Shown: piece after piece, positions 61,405 to 63,268 of the stretch | How positions within the stretch are numbered: the stretch's first letter is position 1 | Layout of the letters: each line of letters begins with the position of its first letter | DNA from: Giardia intestinalis | Taxonomy: Eukaryota | Direction: 5' to 3' (one strand) | Assembly (NCBI GenBank): GCA_000002435.2 | Contig: CM018789.1 | DNA length: 64,000 nucleotides | The notes under the pieces: model-generated | Seen by the model: only the letters and a program-made list of their open reading frames with translations | Database searches by the model: none | What the model was told of the DNA's origin: nothing | Translations under genes and position numbers: made by a program

Positions 61405-63268
61405 TTCTGGGCAGTGGTCCCACAGTCGCGGTTACCTGGGTCCCAGTGGGCCAGCTGGTGGGGAGGCTGGGGTTGCTGGGGCGGTGAGGCCGGAGGGGAC
61501 TGGTGGGACCGGGGGCGGTGTTCATATGTGCCCCTGGGTCTGGTGGGCCATTGGGGTGGTGGGGTGATCGCAGCTGTGGTGACTGGGGGCTGTCCATCTG
61601 TGACTCACCCCTCTGTGTGCTCGTGGTCTGTGAGTGCCTCCACCCAGACAACACTCAGGAGCCGTGCACACCGGGACAGAGAGGGTGACCAAGGGGAGTC
61701 AAGCAGCCCTGCCATGAGAGTGCACAGCAACCAGCCTGAGCTGTAGAGTCTGCTCGAGCGATGGTAGTGGCAGACGACTCCCTCTGACAGCAACCCTGGT
61801 GACTGCACTGGTCTGCTCTCGAGGCTGAGTGACAGTGTGCACAGATGGACATGAGTGCAGGAGGACCATCCACACACGAACAGACTGTGTGGACCCAGAG
61901 AGGACTGGAGTCTGCTCGGGACACGCTGACTGTGCCCCGTACGAGAGTGTCAGGCAACCACCCGAGCACCCGAGAGGCAGCAACAGACACGGGCACTAGA
62001 GATCCCCAGCCAGACACATTGCTATGCCCATCCACAGGGGCATCAGAAGGCCAGGTGGGGTCACCCTCACAACCAGGACCTGATAGGAAGCCAGAGGACT
62101 CAAACACTACAGCAGAGCAGGCCCAAGGGAGGCACACTCCAGGCAGGCGAGCAGTGGCAGAGCCTTGATAGCTGCCATCCACCCCCATGACACCTATAGC
62201 AGGCACCAGACTCACCGAAGGCTCCGCTGGCCTCCACCGATGACCCGAGGGGACAGCGACCAGAGGAGTGAGGAGACCTTCGGATGACACAAGAGGCCGG
62301 CTGTCCAGCAAGCGATGGAACACAGGTGACCTCTGAGCACCATAAGGCACAGAGCCAACCATCAGAGTGATGCCCGATCACAGAGACGACCACGAGCACC
62401 CTCCACCGCACTCTGAGGGGCTGTCAATCATCCCACTGCCTCTCATAGCAGACCTCCTTAAGGGCAGTGCAGTGGGGCCCAGCTCATGCAGGGAGGTGCA
62501 CACCCCTCAGTATAGGACACCCCGGCTCTCCCCGAGGGGTCATCAGAGCCACGAGGAGGTGTCAAGGTCCTGGTAGACCACACCGAGAACTCCCGAACAG
62601 GCACAGCAGGTGATGTTGGGTGATCCTCAGCGTGCTCCTCTCTGATGGTAGAGCATCCTGAGACCAAGGGGGCTCACCTCTGCCTATGAACAACACACAG
62701 CACTCCACAACGAGGATCCACCAGGAGCAGCACAGCTGACCACGGGGACAGTGCAGCCACCCGGTACCCCACCGTGCCAGTCTTCTGGGCCATCACACTA
62801 GAGGCCTGAGAGAACCCCATCCCATCCACAGGGTCATCCATGCCCCTGCTAGCCCGAGGTGAACTACCCCCGTCGAGGCACTGGACAGGGCATGCCAGGG
62901 GCCCAGCAGACCCGCACAGAGCAACAGGAGAGGCTACGATAGCCTGCCTCACCCTTCACGTACTAGTCAAACAGAGAGGTAGTACTGCCTGAGGCATGCA
63001 GAGGCCAAGGGAGGCGCTCAGTCAGGGGGACACGACACGATCGTCGGTGTCTGTGTCTCGGGAGTGCAACGAAGGCTGGGGATCAGACACAACCACCTTG
63101 GCAAACAGAGCGGGGATCACCCACCACCCCAATGGCCCATCAGACCCAGGGGCACATACAGACATCACTCCCAGTCCCCTCCAGCCCTCACCGCCCCATA
63201 CCCCGCCTCACCCATCATCCGAACCCGCTGGGACCCAAGCGACCGCGACTGTAGAGCACTGACTCGAG

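What the first reader, a model, noticed from the sequence alone, without database searches (positions are those of the whole stretch)
61405..63268. T-depleted, C/A-rich 1.9 kb spacer between the inverted arms with no coding potential
On the + strand the spacer is strongly skewed, at roughly a third C, a third A and only about 12% T. Examples are caccgagaactcccgaacaggcacagcag... and ccccatcccatccacagggtcatccatgcccc. All six frames are broken into short low-complexity ORFs. Such sustained strand asymmetry over about 1.9 kb is unusual for Giardia intergenic DNA. It could reflect a transcribed non-coding RNA, a decayed pyrimidine/purine-biased element, or transcription- or replication-associated mutational skew.
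Basis: seen in the sequence. Interest (0 to 1): 0.5.

Follow-up and report, generated by a model that had tools for sequence, protein, structure and literature searches.

The report
Spacer of a Giardia VSP inverted-repeat cassette
The T-poor stretch is the non-coding middle of a repeated Giardia surface-antigen (VSP) inverted-repeat cassette, a kind already described, and its oddest trait is that every copy avoids placing A or T bases side by side.

Summary
Bases 61405-63268 are T-poor (14.8%) and GC-rich (62%), but G (30%) is as common as C and A is only 24%. The interval is simply the gap between two perfect 243-nt inverted cores. The arms really span 61051-61578 and 63106-63621, so the true loop is 61579-63105 (1,527 nt).

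The window is Giardia intestinalis WB. The loop is non-coding and shows no sign of a structured RNA.

It belongs to a multi-copy family. Seven further copies are 90-95% identical in the loop, always flanked by the same arms next to a VSP 3' end. [quoted passage not shown] This locus has one VSP only, and assemblage A2 shares that arrangement.

The skew was already present in the family consensus, so nothing at this locus created it.

One result may be new. A/T bases almost never sit next to each other in the loop (no AT-rich 10-mer, against about 17 expected). Substitutions among the copies still disfavour such neighbours, whereas the arms show no such bias. Function is unknown, and transcription could not be tested.

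The parts
61579..63105 (.). Unique loop (spacer) of the cassette. It is 1,527 nt, A .251 C .314 G .291 T .143, non-coding, and has no AT-rich 10-mer.
   Evidence: Arm boundaries. Composition. Dinucleotides AA .41, TT .25, TA .51, CG .37. Zero AT-rich 10-mers against 16.6+-7.4 in shuffles. Copies 90-95% identical.
61051..61578 (.). Left inverted arm. It is the copy with no VSP beside it; its outer edge faces the NEK upstream region.
   Evidence: 531-nt alignment to the right arm at 86.6%; 87.8% by MAFFT. WB/DH identity drops from 98% to about 80% at ~61050.
63106..63621 (.). Right inverted arm, which is the 3' flank of the VSP gene. Its inner end lies 572 nt past the VSP stop codon.
   Evidence: Compare Table 5 of Adam 2010, where 3' flanks diverge 318-559 (572) nt beyond the stop.
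61162..61404 (.). Perfect 243-nt core of the left arm. It is identical to the reverse complement of 63269-63511.
   Evidence: The four longest Logan short-read contigs carrying the NEK gene end inside this core, at 61226-61289.
63269..63511 (.). Perfect 243-nt core of the right arm.
63296..63404 (.). Best-conserved block of the arm across all 8 arms examined. It contains GCATCTAAAAAAGAC (A-run at 63342-63350). The mirror copy in the left arm includes CTTTTTTAG at 61323.
   Evidence: Arm alignment; motif positions.
63678..64000 (-). 3' end of a VSP gene (...[13 protein letters not shown]), cut by the end of the window. A poly(A)-signal-like AGTAAAC lies at 63664-63670 on the minus strand.
   Evidence: ORF list; motif scan; alignment with the other VSP 3' ends.
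58544..60601 (-). NEK kinase gene bordering the cassette on the left. Context only; it identifies the genome.
   Evidence: Exact match to XP_001709064.1 / KAE8301850.1 of G. intestinalis WB C6.

Best explanation
The region is the central, single-copy, non-coding loop of a VSP-associated inverted-repeat cassette with the layout VSP 3' end, ~0.53-kb arm, 1.53-kb loop, inverted arm. [quoted passage not shown] Here it occurs in a form with only one VSP, and assemblage A2 shares that form.

Shown: its T-poor, GC-rich, CpG-poor composition is a property of the whole family and was already present in the family consensus. Nothing at this locus produced it.

Inferred: the cassette evolves as a unit by gene conversion. 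Conversion between the two arms of a locus would account for the 243-nt perfect core. Conversion between loci would account for the mosaic loops and for the abrupt loss of WB/DH identity at the arm edge. The loop mainly acts as the spacer that keeps a large inverted repeat apart.

Shown: within the loop, adjacent A/T bases are avoided, and this avoidance is still being maintained. Inferred: this is due either to selection against AT-rich promoter or poly(A)-like clusters, or to a context-dependent bias linked to recombination.
For: - Genome identity: exact match of the NEK protein to WB C6.
- Geometry: arms at 61051-61578 and 63106-63621. The right arm's inner end lies 572 nt past the VSP stop. 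The distance from the VSP stop to where a second stop would sit is about 2.68 kb (my arithmetic). Published tail-to-tail pairs have flanks identical for 318-559 (572) nt and 2,393-3,222 nt between ORFs, or spacers of 2,513-2,813 nt with no genes between and 'very similar' spacers in clusters of pairs.
- Family: L009-L014 from four ENA samples, plus DH. Loops are 88-95% identical pairwise in a star-like pattern. The VSP 3' end lies on the left of the loop in L009, L011 and L014, and on the right in the window and L010.
- Non-coding: no 3-base periodicity; mostly 1-2-nt indels; variable sites 47/51/48 by codon position; no Pfam hit; predicted proteins from other copies switch reading frame.
- Inherited composition: consensus CpG o/e 0.36, and all copies T-poor in the same orientation.
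- Conversion: 243-nt perfect core; the DH loop is 100% identical to L011 over 62050-62690 but 85-98% to its left; WB/DH identity drops from 98% to about 80% at 61050.
- Maintained avoidance of adjacent A/T: G/C-to-A/T variants occur at 29.5%, 17.2% and 7.5% of non-CpG G/C sites with 0, 1 and 2 A/T neighbours (p=8e-6). A/T-to-G/C variants occur at 12.9%, 25.9% and 33% (p=1e-4). The G/C-to-A/T gradient holds for singletons (p=0.007); the A/T-to-G/C trend does not reach significance there (p=0.11). The G/C-to-A/T gradient is absent in the arms.
Against: - Only one VSP flanks this copy, so it is not literally a spacer between a duplicated pair.
- I could not search the WB chromosomes, so I have not shown that the annotated tail-to-tail pairs carry this loop. 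That rests on matching geometry and on the homologous copies.
- The mosaic evidence partly relies on metagenome contigs, which can be chimeric across repeats.
- Loops (about 92% identical between copies) are better conserved than arms (70-85%). That could indicate a function beyond spacing.
- Whether the neighbour-dependent substitution pattern reflects selection or mutation bias is unresolved.
- The origin of the A>T asymmetry is unexplained.
Confidence: 0.65

Rival explanations
1. The cassette is a hairpin-RNA locus. Read-through or arm-initiated transcription crosses arm, loop and arm. The arms fold into a ~0.5-kb double-stranded RNA that Dicer cuts into small RNAs acting on VSP 3' regions. 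The loop stays free of AT-rich promoter and poly(A) signals so that the polymerase runs through.
For: - The arms are predicted to pair almost fully: 478 of 528 left-arm bases pair with the right arm, and there is a 243-nt perfect stretch.
- The loop has no AT-rich 10-mer and no AGTRAAY signal on either strand.
- Every arm has a conserved A-run block.
- RNAi is one proposed route of VSP control, as cited. Endo-siRNA-generating repeat loci exist in Giardia (Liao 2014, as cited).
Against: - No expression or small-RNA data could be examined.
- The arms lie outside the VSP coding region.
- The VSP poly(A) signal sits about 10 nt after the stop, ahead of the arm.
- The arms diverge quickly between copies (70-85%), which is unexpected for a sequence-specific trigger.
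Confidence: 0.15
2. The loop is a decayed protein-coding gene or retrotransposon fragment whose sense-strand composition survives as the skew. In G. muris the spacers of VSP pairs hold NEK, ankyrin and zinc-finger pseudogenes. In G. intestinalis the head-to-head pairs hold retrotransposon relics.
For: - Published precedents.
- Giardia genes in this window reach |AT skew| of 0.14-0.26.
- Recurrent 240-270-codon open frames occur on the A-poor strand.
Against: - No Pfam hit at E<=10 in the six consensus frames, whereas the same search detects a weak RT relic elsewhere in the window.
- No tblastx similarity to the NEK, ankyrin, VSP or RT sequences of the window.
- No 3-base periodicity, and no codon-position bias in variation.
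- The open frames differ between copies.
- Published tables list 'None' as genes between tail-to-tail pairs.
Confidence: 0.1
3. The skew is produced at this locus by transcription-coupled or replication-coupled mutation asymmetry.
For: The weak excess of G>A over C>T on the + strand (0.185 against 0.141 per site, p=0.08) runs in the direction that would maintain A>T.
Against: - The bias is present in the family consensus and in every copy, regardless of which side the VSP lies on.
- GC skew is about 0, so the usual paired G/C asymmetry is missing.
- The asymmetry is not significant.
Confidence: 0.05

Closest known systems
[quoted passage not shown] 2010, PMC2996952; Rodriguez-Walker et al. 2022, bioRxiv 10.1101/2022.03.07.483299)
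   Same: It lies 3' of a VSP. About 0.5 kb of the 3' flank is repeated in inverted orientation. The total span is about 2.7 kb, with no gene inside. The spacer sequence is shared between loci.
   Different: Only one VSP is present; the other arm abuts the upstream region of a NEK kinase gene. The arms are 87% identical rather than near-identical. In what I read of these papers I found no description of the spacer's composition or of its neighbour-dependent substitution pattern.
Large palindromes with unique spacers kept similar by arm-to-arm gene conversion (for example the human Y-chromosome palindromes; from general knowledge)
   Same: Inverted arms carrying members of a gene family, a non-duplicated spacer, and signs of conversion between the arms (a 243-nt perfect tract).
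   Different: The scale is far smaller. Here the spacer is itself a conserved multi-copy sequence, and it is more similar between loci than the arms are.
Hairpin-RNA endo-siRNA loci (inverted repeats transcribed into long hairpins; from general knowledge)
   Same: Long complementary arms separated by a loop, in an organism that has Dicer and Argonaute.
   Different: No evidence of transcription or small RNAs was obtainable. The arms are 3' flanks rather than coding sequence.
Dead non-LTR retrotransposon relics of Giardia (GilD / Genie families)
   Same: GC-rich, non-coding, repeated DNA found near VSP genes. A weak RT relic lies 6 kb away in this window.
   Different: No RT or endonuclease remnant in the loop, and no similarity to the relic in the window.

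Membership tests
[quoted passage not shown] | Starts after a ~0.3-0.57-kb VSP 3' flank that is repeated in inverted orientation on the other side | tested here: met
   Arms at 61051-61578 and 63106-63621. The inner end of the right arm lies 572 nt past the VSP stop. Compare.
[quoted passage not shown] | Two identical VSP ORFs facing each other tail to tail | tested here: not met
   There is a VSP only on the right. The left arm ends about 45 nt short of where a stop codon would lie and is followed by the NEK upstream region. DH has the same arrangement.
[quoted passage not shown] | About 2.4-2.8 kb between the (expected) stop codons, with no gene inside | tested here: met
   About 2.68 kb from the VSP stop (63678) to the mirrored stop position (~60994), my arithmetic. 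No coding signal inside. Published range.
[quoted passage not shown] | Spacer sequence very similar to the spacers of other pairs in the same genome | tested here: inconclusive
   Seven homologous copies at 90-95% identity, with VSP 3' ends on either side, and one WB-derived paralogous ORF. The annotated WB pairs themselves could not be searched.
Hairpin-RNA / endo-siRNA locus | Arms able to form a long RNA duplex | tested here: met
   478 of 528 left-arm bases pair with the right arm, with a 243-nt perfect stretch.
Hairpin-RNA / endo-siRNA locus | A transcript spanning both arms, and Dicer-size small RNAs from them | not testable with these tools
   No RNA-seq or small-RNA data are available here. 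Liao 2014 is not held in the library.
Non-LTR retrotransposon relic (GilD/Genie) | Remnants of reverse transcriptase or endonuclease coding sequence | tested here: not met
   No Pfam hit at E<=10 in six frames of the consensus. Positive control: RVT_1 at E=0.0013 for the relic at ~55.8 kb.
Non-LTR retrotransposon relic (GilD/Genie) | DNA similarity to full-length elements, including their long untranslated regions | not testable with these tools
There is no similarity to the relic inside the window.
Structured non-coding RNA | Match to a known RNA family, or folding stability beyond that of shuffled sequence | tested here: not met
   No Rfam hit at E<=1. Mean z is +0.03 and +0.04 on the two strands in 150-nt windows.
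Protein-coding gene or recent pseudogene | Codon periodicity, frame-preserving indels, third-position excess of variation | tested here: not met
   Periodicity 2.4 against 11.6 and 23.2 for two neighbouring genes. Indels mostly 1-2 nt. Variable sites 47/51/48 by codon position.

The most novel reading that the evidence does not exclude
The loop is under selection for a compositional property, the absence of any A/T cluster, rather than for its exact sequence. In Giardia, short AT-rich stretches act as promoters and the poly(A) signal is A-rich (from general knowledge, not checked here). A tract kept free of A/T clusters between convergent VSP units would therefore be either a transcriptionally silent insulator or a read-through conduit that lets the arms form hairpin RNA for VSP silencing. 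That would make it a sequence-independent, composition-defined regulatory element of antigenic variation.
Probability: 0.15. Interest if true: 0.7.

Novelty: new member of a known kind. Interest (0 to 1): 0.4.

Why it matters
VSP switching is how Giardia evades immunity, and the inverted VSP pairs were called 'an interesting, but cryptic observation' by the authors who catalogued them.

- This analysis suggests that the spacer between such pairs is a distinct repeated element. It is better conserved between loci than the arms around it.
- It is the most promoter-poor DNA in 64 kb, and a substitution bias still keeps A/T bases apart.
- If that bias reflects selection, the spacer has a role in how paired VSP genes are transcribed or silenced.
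- If it reflects recombination-linked mutation, it gives a footprint for measuring gene conversion in an organism whose sexual cycle is disputed.
- If neither holds, the finding is an ordinary copy of a known repeat.

Tried and rejected
- Rfam scan of 60500-64000 at E<=1: nothing.
- Folding z-scores on both strands: about 0.
- Pfam on six consensus frames at E<=10: nothing.
- blastn and tblastx of the element against the whole window: only its own arms match. There is no link to the GC-rich RT-relic region at 53-56 kb, the NEK gene, the ankyrin gene or the VSP fragments.
- Decayed microsatellite origin: rejected. There are no internal repeats and no period-2 signal; the depletion is only between immediate neighbours.
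- Strong CpG hypermutation as the cause of CpG depletion: rejected. CpG transitions are only about 1.5 times those at other sites, and the consensus is already depleted.
- APOBEC-like or ADAR-like context signatures: the neighbour preferences do not fit (the comparison with known signatures is from general knowledge).
- 'Flip-flop' inversion of the loop, first suspected from L009: not needed. VSPs on either side of the loop are expected for a tail-to-tail module.
- Ongoing GC-biased conversion as the sole cause of GC-richness: rates polarised on the consensus predict roughly 48% GC at equilibrium (my calculation from the spectrum).
- Exact look-up of the 235-aa ORF: not on record.
- JGI metagenome scan with an invariant 27-mer: no hits.
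- Liao 2014 (endo-siRNA loci): not held. The SRI/SRII gene IDs could not be mapped to the window.
- Loop and arm motifs are not present in the supplementary sequence tables of the 2022 preprint.
- Girep-1 primers are absent from the window.

Full report
**1. The observation**

Bases 61405-63268 recount as A 0.236, C 0.315, G 0.302, T 0.148. The whole window is A 0.261, C 0.239, G 0.244, T 0.256.

- T depletion is real. The lowest min(A,T) fraction of any 1,864-nt window in the 64 kb, 0.1325, falls inside this region.
- AT skew runs from +0.17 to +0.45 between 61600 and 63400, while GC skew stays near zero.
- 'A third A' and 'C/A-rich' are overstated, because G is as common as C.
- The first ~235 nt of the interval have the opposite bias (A 0.089, T 0.242).

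**2. The boundaries**

The interval is the gap between two perfect 243-nt inverted cores, 61162-61404 and 63269-63511. The inverted repeat continues at lower identity to 61051-61578 and 63106-63621. A 531-nt alignment gives 86.6% and MAFFT gives 87.8%. The true unique loop is therefore 61579-63105, 1,527 nt, with composition A .251, C .314, G .291, T .143.

**3. Coding and RNA tests**

- Each frame of 61000-63650 has 21-28 stops. In the consensus loop the six frames have 7-18 stops, close to the 14-15 that composition predicts by my calculation.
- The loop has no 3-base periodicity: 2.4, against 11.6 and 23.2 for two neighbouring genes and 2.4-20 for other 1.5-kb windows.
- There are no internal repeats.
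- Pfam finds nothing in the six consensus frames at E<=10. The same kind of search does pick up a weak reverse-transcriptase relic at about 55.8 kb (RVT_1, E=0.0013, below Pfam's cut-off). That serves as a rough positive control.
- Indels between copies are mostly 1-2 nt.
- Variable sites fall equally on the three codon positions of the longest ORF, 47/51/48.
- Proteins predicted from other copies jump between reading frames.
- There is no Rfam hit at E<=1, and the mean folding z-score is about 0 on both strands.

The loop is non-coding and is not a detectable structured RNA.

**4. Genomic context**

The neighbouring 685-aa NEK kinase is an exact match to XP_001709064.1 of Giardia intestinalis WB clone C6. 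On the right, the minus strand carries the 3' end of a VSP gene (...CRGKA*, stop at 63678) with an AGTAAAC poly(A)-like signal about 10 nt downstream. The right arm is therefore the VSP's 3' flank, and its inner end lies 572 nt past the stop.

**5. The family**

The 235-aa ORF found nine related predicted proteins. Six of their contigs were fetched, and the DH locus gave a seventh copy.

- L010 holds a full-length copy: VSP 3' end, arm, loop, arm, 84% identical over 2,875 nt.
- L012 consists of the loop alone, ending at the arm boundaries.
- L009, L011 and L014 have the VSP 3' end on the left side of the loop. The window and L010 have it on the right. That is what a tail-to-tail module would give.
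- Loops are 88-95% identical pairwise in a star-like pattern.
- The arms are only 70-85% identical between copies. They look mosaic, with alternative sequence blocks.

**6. Published descriptions**

Adam et al. 2010 list nine tail-to-tail identical VSP pairs in their Table 5. These have 2,393-3,222 nt between the ORFs, and 3' flanks that stay identical for 318-559 (572) nt before an 'abrupt divergence'. Rodriguez-Walker et al. 2022 list 13 tail-to-tail pairs with spacers of 2,513-2,813 nt. They show no gene between the pairs and note that the spacers of clusters of pairs are 'very similar'. G. muris has such pairs too.

The window's geometry fits: 57 + 516 + 1,527 + 528 + about 57 nt gives about 2.68 kb (my arithmetic). 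However, only one VSP is present. The left arm stops about 45 nt short of where a stop codon would lie and is followed by the NEK upstream region.

**7. The orthologous locus in assemblage A2**

The orthologous locus in strain DH (L015) has the same one-VSP arrangement.

| Segment | WB/DH identity |
|---|---|
| Most flanking DNA | 95-99% |
| Just left of 61050 | 98% |
| Arms | about 80% |
| Loop | 90-92% |
| VSP end | 77% |

The drop at 61050 is abrupt.

The DH loop is 100% identical to L011, a copy with a different left flank, over 62050-62690, but only 85-98% identical to its left. Together with the 243-nt perfect core, this points to gene conversion within and between loci. One caveat applies: metagenome contigs can be chimeric across repeats.

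On this view the greater similarity of the loops need not mean selection. The loops may draw on a small pool of copies, and the arms on a larger pool of VSP 3' flanks. This is an inference.

**8. Composition**

The sharper anomaly is in the dinucleotides.

| Dinucleotide | Observed/expected in loop |
|---|---|
| AA | 0.41 |
| TT | 0.25 |
| TA | 0.51 |
| AT | 0.82 |
| CG | 0.37 |
| CA, TG, AG, CT | 1.4-1.6 |

- The loop is the extreme of the whole window for both CpG and AA/TT.
- The depletion acts only between immediate neighbours.
- The loop has no 10-mer with 8 or more A/T. Composition-matched shuffles give 16.6 +- 7.4, and none of 1,000 shuffles reaches zero. Other 1.5-kb windows of the 64 kb have at least 14, with a median of 87.
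- Other copies behave the same way, with 0-1 such 10-mers.
- The family consensus is already CpG-poor, at 0.36.

**9. The avoidance is still maintained**

I polarised variants on the family consensus and classed non-CpG sites by the number of A/T neighbours.

| A/T neighbours | G/C sites with a G/C-to-A/T variant | A/T sites with an A/T-to-G/C variant |
|---|---|---|
| 0 | 29.5% | 12.9% |
| 1 | 17.2% | 25.9% |
| 2 | 7.5% | 33% |

The p-values are 8e-6 and 1e-4.

- For singletons the G/C-to-A/T gradient persists (p=0.007). The A/T-to-G/C trend is not significant there (p=0.11).
- In the window's own copy the G/C-to-A/T rates are 8.3%, 4.6% and 0%.
- The G/C-to-A/T gradient is absent in the arms.
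- The overall spectrum is 85% transitions (my count).
- The excess of G>A over C>T is weak (p=0.08).

AT is spared while AA, TA and TT are depleted. That is what an A-to-G process aimed at A bases preceded by A or T would leave. This is a resemblance recalled from general knowledge and has not been tested. Selection against AT-rich clusters is the alternative.

**10. Verdict**

This is one more copy, in a one-VSP form, of the known spacer type between tail-to-tail VSP genes. It is non-coding, and its skew was inherited with the family. The possibly new element is the actively maintained avoidance of adjacent A/T bases. Transcription, small RNAs and the full set of copies in the WB genome could not be examined.

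Noticed in passing
window 55767-55940 (-), within the GC-rich block 53200-56000: A weak reverse-transcriptase remnant (...IAYTDDTLIFYSD...; Pfam RVT_1 E=0.0013, below the cut-off) lies in a 58-59% GC stretch with many overlapping spurious ORFs. It is probably a dead non-LTR retrotransposon relic. This block is the least conserved flank between WB and DH (73-87% identity).
   Followed up: partly
window 63296-63404 and its mirror in the left arm (A-run at 63342-63350; CTTTTTTAG at 61323): A block of about 110 nt containing GCATCTAAAAAAGAC is the best-conserved part of all eight arms examined, although the rest of the arm diverges quickly. It is the only A-run in the cassette. It points outward, antisense to the VSP.
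   Followed up: partly
window 63405-63430 and the same columns in the other arms: The arms fall into two sharply different sequence blocks here: GTGGACGACGCAGATGGGTAAGTAAGC and GTAGAGCAGAGAGTCTGCGAGAAGGCC. The blocks are shared across loci in a way that does not follow the rest of the arm, which suggests recombination.
   Followed up: no
L015 8903-8989 (DH), corresponding to window ~61660: The DH copy carries an insertion of about 86 nt near the left end of the loop that is absent from all other copies.
   Followed up: no
L009 191-2021: This is a rearranged copy. A diverged arm fragment (68-73% identical) is joined directly to loop position ~62655, so the two arm pieces lie in direct rather than inverted orientation, next to a 506-aa VSP.
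   Followed up: no
window 61076-61289 (ends of L001-L005): All short-read Logan contigs carrying the NEK gene stop upstream of or inside the left arm. The four longest stop inside the 243-nt perfect core, which fits assemblies breaking at this inverted repeat.
   Followed up: yes
window 52600-53200 (+): A cysteine-rich, VSP-like ORF fragment (…CSADNNECTRKQDGKCTQCANRSFMYKGGCY…) has tblastx similarity to the VSP-like genes of L009 and L010. It sits at the edge of the GC-rich block.
   Followed up: no
window 56000-57500 (502-aa gene, minus strand): This gene is only about 92% identical between WB and DH, while the neighbouring genes are 97-99% identical.
   Followed up: no
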